Positions 1 through 5,400 of a stretch of 5,400 nucleotides of DNA are shown here, piece after piece. The position numbers and the translations under genes are program-made. Numbering within the stretch: position 1 is the stretch's first letter; each line of letters begins with the position of its first letter. The notes under the pieces were generated by a model, which was not told where the DNA came from, did no database searches, and saw only the letters and a list, made by a program, of their open reading frames with translations. The stretch comes from a virus. Lineage: Duplodnaviria; Heunggongvirae; Uroviricota; Caudoviricetes. The DNA lies in IMG/VR virus record IMGVR_UViG_2675903559_000004, positions 1 through 5,400 of that record. One strand, given 5' to 3'.

Positions 1-612
1 GGGGATTTACAACGATTTGGCCGCCGCATCGACCTTCGTGTGAAAACGGGGGCTGAAGCCATCCGGGCACTGGCCACACAGCTCCCGGCGTTTCGTCAGA
101 AACTGAGCGACGGCTGGTATCAGGTACGGATTTCCGGGCGGGACGTCAGCACGTCCGGATTGACGGCGCAGTTACATGAGGTTCTGCCTGACGGCGCTGT
201 GATTCATATTGTTCCCAGAGTCGCCGGGGCCAAGTCAGGGGGCGTATTCCAGATTGTCCTGGGAGCTGCCGCCATTGCCGGATCATTCTTTACTGCCGGA
301 GCCACCCTTGCAGCATGGGGGGCAGCCATTGGGGCCGGTGGTATGACCGGCATCCTGTTTTCTCTCGGTGCCAGTATGGTGCTCGGTGGTGTGGCGCAGA
401 TGCTGGCACCGAAAGCCAGAACTCCCCGTACACAGACAACGGATAACGGCAAACAGAACACCTATTTCTCCTCACTGGATAACATGGTTGCTCAGGGCAA
501 TGTTTTGCCTGTTCTGTACGGTGAAATGCGTGTGGGGTCACGGGTGGTTTCTCAGGAGATCAGCACGGCAGACGAAGGGGACGGTGGTCAGGTTGTGGTG
601 ATTGGTCGCTGA
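1..612 (+). CDS. I: Tail assembly protein I (lambda gpI-like), 5'-partial; frame is open from base 1, true start lies upstream of the window
   Basis: Frame +1 is open from nt 1 to TGA at 610..612. Translation (GDLQRFGRRIDLRVKTGAEAIRALATQLPAFRQKLSDGWYQVRISGRDV...GAAAIAGSFFTAGATLAAWGAAIGAGGMTGILFSLGASMVLGG...VLPVLYGEMRVGSRVVSQEISTADEGDGGQVVVIGR) matches my recollection of lambda gpI, including its Gly/Ala-rich hydrophobic segment. It sits immediately upstream of J, as in lambda. The ORF track begins at M40 only because the window truncates the gene. Confidence 0.85.
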   Translation, partial: GDLQRFGRRIDLRVKTGAEAIRALATQLPAFRQKLSDGWYQVRISGRDVSTSGLTAQLHEVLPDGAVIHIVPRVAGAKSGGVFQIVLGAAAIAGSFFTAGATLAAWGAAIGAGGMTGILFSLGASMVLGGVAQMLAPKARTPRTQTTDNGKQNTYFSSLDNMVAQGNVLPVLYGEMRVGSRVVSQEISTADEGDGGQVVVIGR

Positions 613-1580
613 TGCAAAATGTTTTATGTGAAACCGCCTGCGGGCGGTTTTGTCGTTTATGGAGCGTGAGGAATGGGTAAAGGCAGCAGTAAGGGGCATA
701 CCCCGCGCGAAGCGAAAGATAACCTGAAATCCACGCAGTTACTGAGTGTGATTGATGCCATCAGCGAAGGGCCGGTTGAAGGTCCGGTGGATGGATTAAA
801 AAGCGTGCTGCTGAACAGTACGCCGGTGCTGGACAGTGAGGGGAATACCAACATCTCCGGTGTCACGGTGGTGTTCCGGGCAGGTGAGCAGGAGCAGACA
901 CCGCCGGAAGGTTTTGAATCCTCCGGCTCCGAGACTGTGCTGGGTACGGAAGTGAAATATGACACGCCGATCACCCGCACCATCACGTCGGCAAACATCG
1001 ACCGTCTGCGCTTTACCTTCGGTGTGCAGGCACTGGTGGAAACCACCTCAAAGGGGGACAGGAATCCGTCGGAAGTCCGCCTGCTGGTTCAGATACAGCG
1101 TAACGGTGGCTGGGTGACGGAAAAAGACATCACCATTAAGGGCAAAACCACCTCGCAGTATCTGGCCTCGGTGGTGGTGGATAACCTGCCGCCGCGCCCG
1201 TTTAATATCCGGATGCGCAGGATGACGCCAGACAGCACCACAGACCAGCTGCAGAACAAAACGCTCTGGTCGTCATACACCGAAATCATCGATGTGAAAC
1301 AGTGCTACCCGAACACGGCACTGGTCGGCGTGCAGGTGGACTCGGAGCAGTTCGGCAGTCAGCAGGTGAGCCGTAATTATCATCTTCGCGGGCGCATTCT
1401 GCAGGTGCCGTCGAACTATAACCCGCAGACGCGGCAATACAGCGGTATCTGGGACGGAACGTTTAAGCCGGCATACAGCGACAACATGGCCTGGTGTCTG
1501 TGGGATATGCTGACCCACCCGCGCTACGGCATGGGGAAACGTCTTGGTGCGGCGGATGTGGATAAATGGGCGCTGTATGA
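584..1580. repeat. Tandem direct repeat, copy A (997 bp): I 3' end + I-J spacer + J 5' ~908 bp
   Basis: Hand alignment at a constant offset of 997 nt: 584..1151 is identical to 1581..2148, and 1152..1579 matches 2149..2576 with 17 substitutions. Base 1580 (a) matches neither the I-derived (g583) nor the J-derived (t2577) parental base. Confidence 0.9.
631..660 (+). promoter_or_regulatory. Intergenic stem-loop in the I-J spacer (stem aaaccgcc / ggcggttt, loop tgcg) followed by a T-rich tract ttgtcgtttat
   Basis: Perfect 8-bp inverted repeat at 631..638 / 643..650 with a 4-nt loop, read directly from the sequence. The T-tract is interrupted, so it is a weak intrinsic terminator at best; it could instead be an RNA processing or stability element between two co-transcribed late genes. 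Confidence 0.35.
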
Positions 1581-1677
1581 GTGGTCAGGTTGTGGTGATT
1601 GGTCGCTGATGCAAAATGTTTTATGTGAAACCGCCTGCGGGCGGTTTTGTCGTTTATGGAGCGTGAGGAATGGGTAA
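673..1677 (+). pseudogene. Truncated duplicate of the J 5' end (J'): first 302 codons of J fused to 32 out-of-frame codons read from the repeated I 3' end and spacer
   Basis: ATG at 673 has the same upstream context (ggagcgtgaggaATGGGTAAAGG) as the real J start at 1670. The protein is identical to the J N-terminus apart from D169G and S228N, up to …ADVDKWALY, then becomes [32 protein letters not shown] and stops at TAA 1675..1677. Confidence 0.75.
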
Positions 1678-2577
1678 AGGCAGCAGTAAGGGGCATACCC
1701 CGCGCGAAGCGAAAGATAACCTGAAATCCACGCAGTTACTGAGTGTGATTGATGCCATCAGCGAAGGGCCGGTTGAAGGTCCGGTGGATGGATTAAAAAG
1801 CGTGCTGCTGAACAGTACGCCGGTGCTGGACAGTGAGGGGAATACCAACATCTCCGGTGTCACGGTGGTGTTCCGGGCAGGTGAGCAGGAGCAGACACCG
1901 CCGGAAGGTTTTGAATCCTCCGGCTCCGAGACTGTGCTGGGTACGGAAGTGAAATATGACACGCCGATCACCCGCACCATCACGTCGGCAAACATCGACC
2001 GTCTGCGCTTTACCTTCGGTGTGCAGGCACTGGTGGAAACCACCTCAAAGGGGGACAGGAATCCGTCGGAAGTCCGCCTGCTGGTTCAGATACAGCGTAA
2101 CGGTGGCTGGGTGACGGAAAAAGACATCACCATTAAGGGCAAAACCACTTCGCAGTATCTGGCCTCGGTGGTGGTGGGTAACCTGCCGCCGCGCCCGTTT
2201 AATATCCGGATGCGCAGGATGACACCGGACAGCACCACAGACCAGCTGCAGAACAAAACGCTCTGGTCGTCGTACACCGAAATCATCGATGTGAAACAGT
2301 GCTACCCGAACACGGCGCTGGTCGGCGTGCAGGTGGATTCAGAGCAGTTCGGTAACCAGCAGGTGAGTCGCAATTATCATCTTCGCGGGCGCATTCTGCA
2401 GGTGCCGTCGAACTATAACCCGCAGACGCGGCAATACAGCGGTATCTGGGACGGAACGTTTAAGCCGGCATACAGCGACAACATGGCCTGGTGTCTGTGG
2501 GACATGCTCACTCATCCGCGCTACGGCATGGGGAAACGTCTTGGTGCGGCGGATGTGGATAAATGGGCGCTGTATGT
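1581..2577. repeat. Tandem direct repeat, copy B (997 bp), lying inside the intact I-spacer-J context
   Basis: Same alignment as copy A. Copy B continues in frame into the rest of J (…[13 protein letters not shown]…), whereas copy A is followed by the repeated I 3' end. Confidence 0.9.
1628..1657 (+). promoter_or_regulatory. Second copy of the I-J spacer stem-loop, duplicated with the repeat
   Basis: Identical to 631..660 at offset +997 (aaaccgcctgcgggcggtttt gtcgtttat). Confidence 0.35.
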
Positions 2578-5149
2578 CATCGGCCAGTACTGCGACCAGT
2601 CAGTGACGGACGGATTTGGCGGCACGGAGCCGCGCATCACCTGTAACTCTTACCTGACCACACAGCGTAAGGCGTGGGATGTTCTCAGTGATTTCTGCTC
2701 GGCGATGCGCTGTATGCCGGTATGGAACGGACAGATGCTGACGTTCGTGCAGGACCGACCGTCGGATAAGGTGTGGACCTATAACCGCAGTAATGTGGTG
2801 ATGCCGGATGATGGCGCGCCGTTCCGCTACAGCTTCAGCGCCCTGAAGGACCGCCATAATGCCGTTGAGGTGAACTGGATTGACCCGGATAACGGCTGGG
2901 AGACGGCGACAGAGCTTGTGGAGGATACGCAGGCCATTGCCCGTTACGGTCGTAATGTCACGAAGATGGATGCCTTTGGTTGTACCAGTCGGGGGCAGGC
3001 ACACCGCGCCGGGCTGTGGCTGATTAAAACGGAACTGCTGGAAACGCAGACCGTGGACTTCAGCGTGGGCGCAGAAGGGCTTCGCCATGTACCGGGTGAT
3101 GTCATTGAAATCTGCGATGATGATTATGCCGGTATCAGCACCGGTGGTCGCGTACTGGCGGTGAACAGCCAGACCCGGACGCTGACGCTCGACCGTGAAA
3201 TCACGCTGCTATCCTCCGGTACCACGCTGATAAGCCTGGTTGACGGAAGTGGCAATCCGGTCAGCGTGGAGGTCCAGTCCGTCACCGACGGCGTGAAGGT
3301 GAAAGTGAGCCGGGTTCCTGACGGCGTTGCAGAATACAGCGTGTGGGGGCTGAAGCTGCCGACGCTGCACCAGCGATTGTTCCGCTGCGTGAGTATCCGT
3401 GAGAACGACGACGGCACGTATGCCATCACCGCCGTGCAGCATGTACCGGAAAAAGAGGCCATCGTGGATAACGGGGCACACTTTGACGGTGACCGGCGCG
3501 GCACGGTGAATGGTGTCACGCCGCCAGCGGTGCAGCATCTGACCGCCGAAGTCACCGCAGACAGCGGGGAATATCAGGTGCTGGCGCGATGGGACACGCC
3601 GAAGGTGGTGAAGGGTGTGAGCTTCCTGCTTCGCCTGACCGTGGCAGCGGACGACGGCAGTGAGCGGCTGGTCAGCACAGCCAGGACGACGGAAACCACA
3701 TACCGCTTCAGGCAGCTGGCGCTGGGGAATTACAGTCTGACAGTCCGGGCGGTAAATGCCCGGGGGCAGCAGGGCGATCCGGCGTCGGTATCGTTCCGGA
3801 TTGCGGCACCGGCAGCGCCTGTCACTATTGAACTGATACCGGGGTATTTTCAGATAACGGCGGTCCCGAAACTGGCTGTATATGACCCGACGGTGCAGTT
3901 TGAGTTCTGGTTTTCGGAAAAGCGGATTGCGGATATCAGGCAGGTTGAAACCAGCGCGCGTTATCTTGGTACGGCACTGTACTGGATAGCCGCCAGTATC
4001 AATATCAAACCGGGCCATGATTATTATTTTTACGTTCGCAGTGTGAACACCGTTGGCAAATCGGCATTTGTGGAGGCCATCGGTCGGGCGAGCGATGATG
4101 CAGAAGGTTATCTGAATTTTTATAAAGGGTTGATCAATAAAACGCATCTCGGCAAGGAGTTGTGGACGCAGATTGATAACGGTCAGCTTGCGCCGGACCT
4201 GACTGAAATCAGGACGTCCATTACGAATGTCAGCAATGAAATCACGCAAACCGTCAATAAAAAACTGGAAAATCAGAGTGCTGCAATCCAGCAGATACAG
4301 AAAGTTCAGGTTGATACAAATAATAACCTGAACAGCATGTGGGCTGTGAAGCTGCAGCAGATGCAGGACGGACGCCTTTATATTGCGGGTATCGGTGCCG
4401 GTATTGAGAATACGCCAGCAGGAATGCAGAGTCAGGTGCTGCTGGCGGCAGACAGGATTGCGATGATTAATCCTGCGAATGGCAACACAAAGCCGATGTT
4501 TGTTGGTCAGGGCGATCAGATATTCATGAACGACGTGTTCCTGAAATGCCTGACGGCTCCGACCATTACCAGCGGCGGTAATCCTCCGGCATTTTCCCTG
4601 ACACCTGGCGGACGGCTGACGGCGAAAAATGCCGATATCAGCGGTAACGTGAACGCGAACTCCGGGACGCTCAACAACGTCACGATTAATAAGAACTGTC
4701 GGGTTCTGGGAAAATTGTCCGCGAACCAGATTGAAGGCGATCTCGTTAAAACAGTGGGCAAACCTTTCCCACGGGACTCCCGGGCACCGGAGAGGTGGCC
4801 ATCAGGGACCATTACCGTCAGGGTTTATGACGATCAGCCGTTTGATCGGCAAATTGTTATTCCCGCGGTGGCGTTTCGCGGTGCTAAACATGAGCGGAAG
4901 AATAACAATATTTATTCGTCATGCCGCCTGATAGTGAAGAAAAACGGTGCTGAAATTTATAACCGAACGACCCTGGATAATACGCTGATATATACGGGTG
5001 TTATTGATATGCCTGCCGGTCACGGTCACATGACGCTGGAGTTTTCTGTATCGGCATGGCTGGTAAATGGCTGGTATCCCACAGCAAGTATCAGCGATTT
5101 GCTGGTTGTGGTGATGAAGAAAGCCACTGCAGGCATCACGATTAGCTGA
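1670..5149 (+). CDS. J: Host specificity protein J (lambda gpJ-like tail tip / central tail fibre), 1159 aa
   Basis: Single 3480-nt ORF. N-terminus [54 protein letters not shown] matches my recollection of lambda J. Length is close to lambda J (about 1130 aa). A central stretch around nt 3530..3830 (…[32 protein letters not shown]…) looks like a fibronectin-III-type beta-sandwich. A GGAG Shine-Dalgarno at 1658..1661 lies 8 nt before the ATG. Position fits the order I, J, lom. Confidence 0.93.
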
Positions 5150-5168
5150 ATTTTATAACCCAGATACG

Positions 5169-5192
5169 GGCACCAGAAATGGTGCCTTTTTT
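5169..5192 (+). terminator. Rho-independent terminator downstream of J
   Basis: Perfect hairpin ggcacc (5169..5174) / ggtgcc (5181..5186) with loop agaaat, immediately followed by TTTTTT (5187..5192); begins 20 nt after the J stop codon. Confidence 0.7.
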
Positions 5193-5216
5193 ATTGCAGA
5201 AAAGCGAGAGGTAATT

Positions 5217-5400
5217 ATGCGTAAAGTTTGTGCAGCCATTTTGTCCACAGCCATCTGTCTGGCCGTATCCGGTGCGCCTGCATGGGCGTCTGAACATCAG
5301 TCCACGCTGAGCGCCGGGTATCTTCAGACCCATACTGATATGCCAGGCAGCGATGACCTGAAGGGCATTAACGTGAAATACCGTTATGAGTTTACGGACA
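5217..5400 (+). CDS. lom: Lom-like outer membrane protein precursor (Ail/Lom/OmpX family), 3'-partial; runs off the window end
   Basis: ATG at 5217 preceded by GAGAGG (5206..5211). Translation MRKVCAAILSTAICLAVSGAPAWA/SEHQSTLSAGYLQTHTDMPGSDDLKGINVKYRYEFTD has a typical Sec signal peptide (AxA cleavage motif) and the LKGINVKYRYE motif I recall from lambda Lom. It lies directly after J, as lom does in lambda. It is absent from the ORF track only because no stop codon falls inside the window. Confidence 0.85.
   Translation, partial: MRKVCAAILSTAICLAVSGAPAWASEHQSTLSAGYLQTHTDMPGSDDLKGINVKYRYEFTD

What the first reader, a model, noticed from the sequence alone, without database searches (positions are those of the whole stretch)
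1574..1590. Duplication junction shows no microhomology and has one base matching neither parent
At the join (ctgtatg-a-gtggtcagg) the J-derived sequence ends at g1579 and the I-derived sequence begins at g1581. Base a1580 matches neither t2577 (J) nor g583 (I), and the flanking parental sequences share no obvious short homology. This points to an illegitimate, non-homologous join (template switch or end-joining with a 1-nt filler) or a non-biological chimera, not unequal crossing-over between pre-existing repeats.
Basis: seen in the sequence. Interest (0 to 1): 0.45.

Follow-up and report, generated by a model that had tools for sequence, protein, structure and literature searches.

The report
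Probable false duplication from draft assembly
The odd join is really in the sequence. It sits in a 5.4-kb scaffold of a short-read Shigella sonnei draft, where two different prophage copies of the tail genes I and J are stitched together, so it is most likely an assembly error rather than a recombination event.

Summary
**Observation:** confirmed. Bases 584-1580 and 1581-2577 form a 997-bp tandem repeat. Base a1580 matches neither parental base, and the breakpoints share no usable microhomology.

**Origin of the window:** it is the whole of contig CXBG01000225.1 (5,400 bp) from Shigella sonnei draft GCA_001250655.1. It carries lambda-like tail genes: I, a truncated J', a 29-nt I tail, full-length J and the start of lom.

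**The two copies are different alleles:**
- They differ at 17 sites, 15 at third codon positions and 16 transitions, so they are two functional J alleles and not one sequence duplicated in place.
- Copy 1 is a pure "P1" allele, matching five other loci at 99.8%.
- Copy 2 is P1-type for 568 nt, then switches to the S. sonnei chromosomal "P2" allele.

**Where else the junction occurs:** nowhere I could search.
- It is absent from 5,426 complete E. coli genomes, 50,697 phage records and three contig collections.
- The roughly 35 related loci that span I into J (of about 40 fetched) read I-J without a duplication. These include a complete S. sonnei genome and a scaffold whose accession prefix suggests the same batch.

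**Verdict:** the region is multi-copy, and other S. sonnei assemblies break there. The best reading (about 0.72) is a false tandem duplication made when two contigs from paralogous prophage copies were joined. No documented pipeline step explains the stray "a", so a real illegitimate join stays a rival (about 0.2). Only the raw reads can decide.

The parts
1..612 (+). 3' part of tail assembly gene I, P1-type allele. The called ORF is 40-612 with the stop at 610-612.
   Evidence: ORF list. PF06805 Lambda_tail_I on the called gene. The exact 190-aa product is widespread. No mismatch to L023 over window 1-140; one mismatch in the I region, at 505.
584..1580 (+). Repeat copy 1 (997 nt): last 29 nt of I, the I-J spacer, and J codons 1-302. 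It is a pure P1-type allele.
   Evidence: Part A (1-1579) has 3 mismatches in 1,579 nt to L023, L034, L036, L042 and L043. Bases 1100-1579 are 100% identical to those loci.
673..1677 (+). J' ORF: 302 in-frame J codons, then 32 out-of-frame codons read across the junction, the I tail and the spacer. It ends 8 nt inside the second J.
   Evidence: This exact product is not in the 15-billion-protein collection.
1580..1580 (+). Stray base A at the join. It matches neither parent and no allele seen in related loci.
1581..2577 (+). Repeat copy 2 (997 nt). 1581-1609 is the I tail with its stop, 1610-1669 the spacer, and J starts at 1670. P1-type alleles run to about 2057. P2-type alleles occupy 2149-2371 and 2503-2515.
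1152..1518 (+). Segment holding all 17 differences between the copies (copy 2 equivalent 2149-2515). 15 are at third codon positions, 16 are transitions, and 2 change an amino acid (D170G, S229N).
1670..5149 (+). Full-length host-specificity / tail-tip gene J (1,159 aa). P2-type backbone with short P1-type patches.
   Evidence: Pfam families on the called gene. The exact protein is seen on this one contig only and is named as Shigella sonnei. 42 of its 46 differences from the S. sonnei P2 allele are P1 alleles.
5217..5400 (+). Start of lom (Ail/Lom outer-membrane protein), cut off by the end of the contig.
   Evidence: PF06316; annotation.

Best explanation
The junction is most likely an assembly artefact: a false tandem duplication.

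**Shown**
- The isolate's reads contain at least two paralogous lambda-like tail modules. One is a P1-type module, the allele also found on roughly 46-kb phage-plasmid-like contigs and other prophages. The other is the resident S. sonnei chromosomal P2 prophage next to sitABCD.
- The two alleles are identical or nearly identical over stretches of tens to hundreds of bases in I and the 5' third of J.
- The scaffold is composite.

**Inferred**
- A short-read de Bruijn assembly followed by greedy scaffolding and gap closing produced one contig ending at J nt 907 (P1: I-J', window 1-1579).
- It produced another contig starting 29 nt before the end of I (window 1581-5400). That contig is itself a P1-to-P2 chimera, switching inside an identical stretch of about 83 nt.
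- The two contigs really overlap by about 1 kb but were laid end to end, which writes the overlap twice.

**Not explained**
- The single A occupies the place of a gap placeholder or a wrongly called gap base. Its exact origin is unknown.

Nothing here acts biologically. J' would be a by-product of the misjoin.
For: 1. The window is the entire record CXBG01000225.1 (5,400 bp) of draft GCA_001250655.1, Shigella sonnei. Both ends fall inside prophage genes.
2. The region is multi-copy. E. coli genomes hold a median of 3-4 places, up to 14-16. Other S. sonnei drafts break their contigs inside the 5' part of J, at window-equivalent 1963-2097.
3. The copies are two alleles, not a duplicated sequence. 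There are 17 differences, 15 at third codon positions and 16 transitions. Copy 1 matches five P1 loci at 99.8% (100% over 1100-1579), while the equivalent stretch of copy 2 has 17 mismatches to the same loci. The distal part of copy 2 is closest to the S. sonnei P2 loci (98.8-99.2%).
4. Part B is chimeric. Its first 568 nt carry P1 alleles at 21 of 23 discriminating sites and then it switches to P2. 42 of its 46 differences from clean P2 are P1 alleles. Clean P2 loci carry P2-type alleles in that stretch, with the other I allele upstream (T at 582).
5. The I-side breakpoint (584) lies 2 nt after that last I1/I2 difference. This is where sequence shared by both paralogues begins.
6. The junction 24-mer, with N at the filler, is absent from genome contigs, viral contigs and metagenome contigs. 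No contiguous match exists in 5,426 complete E. coli genomes or 50,697 phage records.
7. Roughly 35 related loci that span I into J read I-J without duplication. They include a complete S. sonnei chromosome (L005) and L027, a scaffold whose accession prefix suggests the same batch. The six L028-L033 contigs begin inside J and say nothing on this point.
8. L027 contains a 251-N gap, so records of this kind are scaffolds.
9. The Sanger pipeline paper describes Velvet, then SSPACE, then 120 rounds of GapFiller, run on reads that are not proper pairs. It says these greedy tools "can lead to false joins" and lists 299 S. sonnei assemblies averaging 405 contigs (PMC5320598). Its supplement lists S. 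sonnei under prefixes CWW, CWZ and CXA, next to CXBG in the series.
10. Published criteria for false duplications fit: allele-specific differences between copies, and a gap or filled gap between copies on one scaffold (PMC9516828).
Against: - The record has a real base, not N, at the join. As published, GapFiller closes a gap only when its two read-derived extensions overlap by at least 10 nt (PMC3446322). A de Bruijn contig needs k-mers across every position. Taken literally, a gapless join therefore implies that some reads carry it.
- The A is neither parental base, so simple extension from either side does not produce it. I could not reconstruct a documented step that yields exactly this junction.
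- That GCA_001250655.1 went through the Sanger pipeline is inferred from accession series. It was not found in the truncated stored supplement.
- Attempts to show that the contig ends fall on de Bruijn node boundaries were inconsistent. The A end is 61 nt past the last copy-specific SNP, but the left end of the contig fits no such rule.
- Real gene conversion between these paralogues does occur in S. sonnei: L005 differs from L007 by one P1-type patch of about 230 bp. The mosaic of part B alone therefore does not prove an artefact.
Confidence: 0.72

Rival explanations
1. The junction is real: an illegitimate, homology-independent recombination in this isolate. One route is a single crossover joining J nt 907 of the P1 module to the I 3' end of a P2-derived module, with one untemplated or mutated base. 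The other is a 997-bp in-place duplication followed by one gene-conversion tract of at least 367 nt that changed 1152-1518. I and a full J would stay intact, with an extra truncated J' between them.
For: The join is gapless, and the documented algorithms need read support for that. There is no microhomology and there is a 1-nt filler, as in homology-independent joins. Both I and full-length J remain intact ORFs. Gene conversion between these paralogues is real in S. sonnei. Real rearrangements inside J exist elsewhere: L018 and L019 have an inversion breakpoint at window-equivalent 837-839.
Against: The copies were never identical, or else extra events are needed. The right-hand copy starts with P1-type sequence while its body is P2-type, so a further exchange is required. 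With kilobases of 95% or higher homology available, homologous exchange would be far more likely than a non-homologous join offset by 997 nt. Enterobacteria lack Ku/LigD end-joining (established knowledge). The event falls exactly in the stretch most confusing to assemblers, which a real event has no reason to prefer. It is unique among all loci and collections searched. A 568-bp perfect direct repeat would also be lost readily by RecA recombination.
Confidence: 0.2
2. The junction exists only in a few library molecules or in a minor subpopulation, for example a chimeric fragment or a rare rearranged copy of a multi-copy phage-plasmid. The gap-closing step promoted it to consensus because it works only on reads that are not proper pairs, a set enriched in such molecules.
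For: The pipeline discards proper pairs before scaffolding and gap closing, and lowers its evidence threshold step by step (for scaffolding links, down to five read pairs) (PMC5320598). GapFiller by default accepts a base from as few as 2 reads (PMC3446322). This would account for a gapless join with a non-parental base. The P1 module also occurs on roughly 46-kb contigs with ParA/SopB genes, which suggests a possibly multi-copy replicon.
Against: A random chimera that happens to link exactly the two contig ends already placed next to each other is very unlikely. There is no direct evidence for any such reads, and the copy number of P1 in this isolate is unknown.
Confidence: 0.06
3. Unequal homologous crossing-over, or replication slippage between short pre-existing repeats at the two breakpoints.
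For: None beyond the presence of a tandem repeat.
Against: The breakpoints share no string in register. The only shared 4-mer (GTCA) would give a different junction. A base foreign to both parents sits at the join.
Confidence: 0.01

Closest known systems
False 'heterotype' duplications in genome assemblies (Kelley & Salzberg 2010, from memory; Ko et al. 2022, PMC9516828)
   Same: Two diverged versions of one locus are both kept and placed next to each other on one scaffold. The copies differ by allele-specific variants, and a gap or a wrongly filled gap lies between them. The result is a spurious partial gene copy, here J'.
   Different: In those studies the two versions are haplotypes of a diploid. 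Here they are paralogous prophage modules of a haploid bacterium. Here the join is a single base and not a run of N. Read depth and pair discordance, the diagnostic measures, could not be checked.
False joins by greedy scaffolding and gap closing (SSPACE / GapFiller in the Sanger prokaryote pipeline, PMC5320598; PMC3446322)
   Same: A short scaffold of repeat sequence from a batch of S. sonnei drafts averaging 405 contigs. The authors themselves state that false joins are a risk. A scaffold likely from the same batch (by accession prefix) still holds an N gap in the same prophage.
   Different: Published GapFiller rules require a 10-nt overlap of read-derived extensions to close a gap. That does not predict a join with a non-parental base. 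Use of this pipeline for this assembly is inferred, not shown.
RecA-independent short-junction tandem duplications and illegitimate recombination in enterobacteria and phage lambda (own knowledge: Reams & Roth; Ikeda; Emmons)
   Same: A head-to-tail repeat of about 1 kb with a junction of 0-1 nt homology inside a lambda-like genome.
   Different: Such duplications are born with identical copies. Here the copies are two alleles with a selection-shaped substitution pattern, and the right copy is a chimera of two paralogues. Nothing shows that the junction exists in DNA.

Membership tests
False duplication from mis-assembly | The duplicated copies carry variants that belong to two different source alleles (haplotypes or paralogues) | tested here: met
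   17 differences between the copies. Copy 1 matches five P1 loci at 99.8-100%. Copy 2 carries S. sonnei P2 alleles at 2149-2371 and 2503-2515.
False duplication from mis-assembly | The copies sit on one scaffold, separated by a gap or a wrongly filled gap at contig ends | tested here: inconclusive
   The copies are separated by a single base foreign to both parents. The record is a whole small scaffold-type entry, and a record likely from the same batch has an N gap. No scaffold (AGP) or evidence file is available to show that 1579/1581 are contig ends.
False duplication from mis-assembly | Read depth is not doubled, and read pairs across the join are discordant or absent | not testable with these tools
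False duplication from mis-assembly | The structure is absent from better or independent assemblies of the same locus | tested here: met
   Roughly 35 related loci that span I into J lack it, including complete S. sonnei CP180280.1. The junction is absent from 5,426 E. coli genomes, 50,697 phage records and three contig collections. No independent assembly of this same isolate was available.
Genuine tandem duplication by illegitimate (RecA-independent) recombination | The junction joins non-homologous or microhomologous sequence | tested here: met
   0-1 nt of overlap, plus one foreign base.
Genuine tandem duplication by illegitimate (RecA-independent) recombination | The copies are identical at birth, and later differences are random with respect to codon position | tested here: not met
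   17 differences, 15 at third codon positions and 16 transitions, all matching pre-existing alleles.
Genuine tandem duplication by illegitimate (RecA-independent) recombination | The junction is present in the DNA (reads, PCR) | not testable with these tools
   No reads are available.
Unequal homologous crossing-over between pre-existing repeats | The junction lies inside a sequence shared by both breakpoints | tested here: not met
   No shared string in register.
Lambda-like tail tip module (I, J, lom) | Pfam families and gene order K-I-J-lom | tested here: met
   PF06805 on I. PF24801, PF13550, PF24421, PF24489, PF09327 and PF12421 on J. PF06316 on lom. RefSeq annotation of homologous loci agrees.

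The most novel reading that the evidence does not exclude
The junction is real. In this S. sonnei isolate a homology-independent join, with one untemplated base, linked J nt 907 of a P1-type (possibly phage-plasmid-borne) tail module to the I 3' end of the chromosomal P2 prophage. That would create a truncated J' in front of an intact hybrid J. It would be a caught-in-the-act example of illegitimate recombination between co-resident lambdoid elements that share kilobases of homology.
Probability: 0.2. Interest if true: 0.3.

Novelty: not a real feature. Interest (0 to 1): 0.1.

Why it matters
**If it is an artefact, as judged.** It is a caution rather than a discovery.
- Thousands of public drafts from scaffold-and-gap-fill pipelines may hold gapless false duplications in prophage tail genes.
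- These create spurious truncated genes, here a 334-aa J'.
- They also create chimeric host-range proteins. The 1,159-aa J here is unique in a 15-billion-protein collection.
- Such proteins would contaminate studies of phage host-range evolution, recombination breakpoints and pangenomes.

**If it is real.** It would be a single, probably unstable, homology-independent rearrangement between lambdoid elements. That is of modest interest and of a known kind.

Tried and rejected
1. **Exact junction searches.** I searched with N at the filler in GTDB representative genomes, IMG/VR and JGI metagenomes and found nothing. S. sonnei is probably folded into E. coli in GTDB (not checked), so these sets hold few or no S. 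sonnei drafts. The negatives are therefore weak for sibling isolates.
2. **Megablast of 301 nt across the junction.** Against E. coli genomes and phages it gave only split hits from the normal I-J arrangement. One 381-bp hit (H2) turned out to be an unrelated Qin prophage deletion.
3. **Exact-protein look-up of J'.** It is not on record, even though the gene is called on the contig. Siblings therefore cannot be found this way.
4. **A natural allele for the A.** None exists in 27 and 33 occurrences.
5. **Alternative alignments of the junction.** Options were I-derived "ga" with a 2-nt deletion, the GTCA 4-mer, and ATG microhomology with the P2-type I allele. All need an extra event and none removes the foreign base.
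6. **The 10-mer GCGCTGTATG.** It ends at the J breakpoint, recurs 141 nt downstream in J, and equals GapFiller's default 10-nt overlap. I could not build a closure path from it that gives the observed sequence, so I treat it as coincidence.
7. **De Bruijn node-boundary arithmetic.** The A end is 61 nt after the last copy-specific SNP, and B starts 2 nt after the last I1/I2 SNP. That is suggestive. The left contig end (SNPs at -69 and +21) fits no k, so this is inconclusive.
8. **Part B's fine mosaic as proof of an artefact.** Rejected. Some allele switches are 1-12 nt apart, so the proxies are not the exact parents, and a real conversion patch exists in L005.
9. **Finding the assembly in the supplement of PMC5320598.** The stored file is truncated. 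Only neighbouring prefixes were found.
10. **Literature search for the accession.** No hits.
11. **Memory-based leads, untested.** SSPACE writes a single 'n' for negative gaps without overlap, and Velvet stores N as A.
12. **Junction-peptide search of the big protein database.** Not run. k=31 unitigs across a junction flanked by repeats would be too short to yield a called gene, so a negative result would say nothing.

Full report
**What is in the window**

The window carries lambda-like tail genes. They are the 3' part of I (ORF 40-612), an ORF of 334 codons (673-1677), a full-length J of 1,159 codons (1670-5149) and the start of lom (5217-5400). The repeat finder reports a 100% direct repeat 584-883 / 1581-1880 at spacing 997. 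Comparing every base with its partner 997 nt away defines the repeat unit as 584-1580 / 1581-2577.

The order is therefore I, then J' (J codons 1-302), then one base, then the last 29 nt of I with its stop, then the I-J spacer, then a complete J, then lom. J' reads out of frame across the join for 32 codons and stops 8 nt inside the second J.

**Checking the observation**

The junction reads GGGCGCTGTATG-A-GTGGTCAGG.

- Base a1580 differs from t2577 and from g583, and the next bases outward also mismatch.
- In 27 related loci the base before GTGGTCAGG is always G. In 33 occurrences the base after GCGCTGTATG at this J position is always T. The A is therefore not a known allele of either parent.
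- Within 12 nt either side of the breakpoints, the only shared string of 4 nt or more is GTCA. It is out of register and would give a different junction.
- If the A is read as an insertion, g1579 could come from either parent (1 nt).
- With the I allele carried by all S. sonnei P2 loci (T at 582), the shared string would be ATG (3 nt), still interrupted by the A.

The copies are identical over 584-1151. They differ at 17 sites in 1152-1518, then match again for 61 nt up to the join. Fifteen of the 17 differences are at third codon positions, 16 are transitions, and only two change an amino acid. That pattern belongs to two functional J alleles that diverged under selection. It does not fit decay of a duplicate.

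**Where the window comes from**

An exact look-up of the J protein returns a single record, CXBG01000225.1 of assembly GCA_001250655.1. The contig length is 5,400, so the window is the whole contig. The sources name the organism Shigella sonnei.

L027 is a scaffold of the same prophage from GCA_001256735.1 (prefix CWTY01). I take it to be from the same submission batch on accession prefix alone. It holds a run of 251 N, so such records are scaffolds.

The Sanger high-throughput pipeline paper describes Velvet, then SSPACE, then 120 rounds of GapFiller. These improvement steps use only reads that do not map as proper pairs, with evidence thresholds lowered step by step. The paper says these greedy tools can make false joins. 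It lists 299 S. sonnei assemblies with a mean of 405 contigs (PMC5320598).

The stored part of its supplement lists S. sonnei assemblies under prefixes CWW, CWZ and CXA. CXBG itself is not in the stored, truncated part. That this assembly came from the same pipeline is therefore an inference.

**Two paralogous modules**

*Part A (1-1579).*
- Its best match among complete E. coli genomes is 98.8%.
- It matches five loci (L023/L039, L034, L036, L042, L043) with only 3 mismatches. Bases 1100-1579 are 100% identical to them.
- I call this allele P1.
- The K protein next to it in those loci is annotated in many S. sonnei assemblies with Sanger-style accessions.
- Several carriers are contigs of about 46-47 kb with ParA/SopB genes.
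- In every P1 locus, J continues normally with TCATCGG after CTGTATG.

*Part B (1581-5400).*
- Its closest relatives are the S. sonnei prophage that sits next to sitABCD: 98.8-99.2% to L007-L016 and L027-L033, and 98.1% to L005 from complete genome CP180280.1.
- I call this allele P2.

*Part B is not a clean P2.*
- Its first 568 nt carry P1 alleles at 21 of 23 discriminating sites and are identical to copy 1.
- It then carries P2 alleles at 2149-2371 and 2503-2515, and P2 alleles over most of the rest of J.
- Of its 46 differences from the clean P2 allele, 42 are P1 alleles. They fall in the first block and in eight or more short patches.
- Clean P2 loci have P2-type sequence in that first block and a different I allele upstream. 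The last I1/I2 difference is at 582, 2 nt before the point where part B begins.

**Does the junction recur?**

No.
- The 24-mer across it, with N at the filler, is absent from GTDB representative genomes, IMG/VR and JGI metagenomes.
- No contiguous match exists in 5,426 complete E. coli genomes or 50,697 phage records.
- All full-window matches span about 4,403 bp, which is the window length without the duplication.
- Roughly 35 related loci that span I into J read I-J without duplication. The six L028-L033 contigs begin inside J and cannot speak to this.
- The exact J protein is seen on this one contig only, and J' is not in the protein collection at all.

**Why I favour an artefact**

1. The junction lies in the stretch where co-resident prophage copies are near-identical and where other S. 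sonnei drafts break their contigs, at window-equivalent 1963-2097. A real non-homologous join has no reason to prefer that stretch. A misjoin can only happen there.
2. The two copies come from two source alleles, and the right-hand piece is itself a P1-to-P2 chimera. It switches inside an identical stretch of about 83 nt, which is the classic repeat-induced error.
3. A real event would need a non-homologous join offset by 997 nt between partners that share kilobases of 95% or higher homology, plus at least one more exchange.
4. The record type and the likely pipeline are known to give false joins.
5. The pattern matches the published description of false duplications: allele-specific differences between the copies, and a gap or filled gap between copies on one scaffold (PMC9516828).

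The mechanism I infer is as follows. A P1 contig ending at J nt 907 and a contig beginning at the start of sequence shared by both paralogues truly overlap by about 1 kb. They were laid end to end, which writes the overlap twice.

**What speaks against it**

- The join is a base, not N.
- As published, GapFiller closes a gap only when two read-derived extensions overlap by at least 10 nt (PMC3446322). De Bruijn contigs need k-mers across every position.
- Extending from either side would give T or G, not A.
- I could not derive the A from any documented step. My recollections that SSPACE writes a single 'n' for negative gaps, and that Velvet stores N as A, are untested leads.
- Node-boundary arithmetic was inconsistent.
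- The mosaic of part B could be real. Some allele switches are only 1-12 nt apart, and L005 shows one genuine P1-type conversion patch of about 230 bp.

I therefore keep a real illegitimate join at about 0.2. I give about 0.06 to a junction present only in a few molecules and promoted by gap closing on improper pairs. Unequal homologous crossing-over is excluded by exact alignment.

**Comparison with known things**

The finding behaves like a false "heterotype" duplication, with paralogous prophage modules taking the place of haplotypes. Two of that category's defining features were met here: allele-specific copies, and absence from independent assemblies of the locus. One was inconclusive: contig ends at the join. 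The read-depth and pair criteria could not be tested.

As a genuine short-junction tandem duplication, it meets the junction criterion. It fails the expectation that the copies are identical at birth.

**Verdict**

It is not a new biological feature.

Interest is low. The practical lesson is that the 334-aa J' and the unique 1,159-aa J of this record should not be used as evidence of gene truncation or recombination until the reads are checked.

Noticed in passing
L035, L037, L040, L041, L042 (contigs of 46.0-47.0 kb; genes at locus coordinates about 19,200-20,744): The P1-type K-I-J-lom tail module sits on roughly 46-47-kb contigs. These carry ParA (CbiA) and SopB-type partition genes just after the tail-fibre genes, which suggests phage-plasmids. 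Several also have a Macro-domain gene between the tail fibre and its chaperone.
   Followed up: no
L005 / L006 versus L007-L016, window-equivalent 3730-3958: Within S. sonnei, the P2 J gene of complete genome CP180280.1 differs from the common draft allele by one contiguous patch of about 230 bp. Nearly all of its sites carry P1-type alleles. An independent draft (L006) is identical across the patch, so this looks like real gene conversion between co-resident J paralogues.
   Followed up: partly
L018 and L019, locus 9,064-10,800 (window-equivalent 837-839): In two long contigs, I and the first 166 nt or so of J are on one strand, and the rest of J continues on the opposite strand upstream. This is an inversion breakpoint inside J, presumably from homologous exchange between two inverted prophages.
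   Followed up: no
L027 6179-6429: This S. sonnei scaffold (CWTY01000170.1), probably from the same batch as the window, has a 251-N gap across the J 3' end and lom 5' end. That is close to where the window's contig stops (lom nt 184), so this stretch is a second assembly trouble spot in the prophage.
   Followed up: partly
window 631-650 and 1628-1647: A perfect GC-rich hairpin (AAACCGCCTGCGGGCGGTTT) followed by a T-rich run lies in the I-J spacer and is duplicated with it. The simple terminator scan did not flag it.
   Followed up: partly
window 2567-2576 and 2708-2717: The 10-mer GCGCTGTATG that ends exactly at the J-side breakpoint recurs 141 nt downstream in J. It is conserved in all 33 related J genes fetched.
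   Followed up: partly
window 3369, 3376, 3377, 5247: Four bases in J and lom match neither the P1-type nor the P2-type alleles in any fetched locus. They could be private variants of this isolate or consensus errors.
   Followed up: no
L001 (E. coli CFSAN061772, Qin prophage), locus 5586-7355: The Qin remnant keeps an I fragment and a J fragment, both annotated as partial, with an internal J deletion. This produced a misleading 92%-coverage hit to the junction query.
   Followed up: partly
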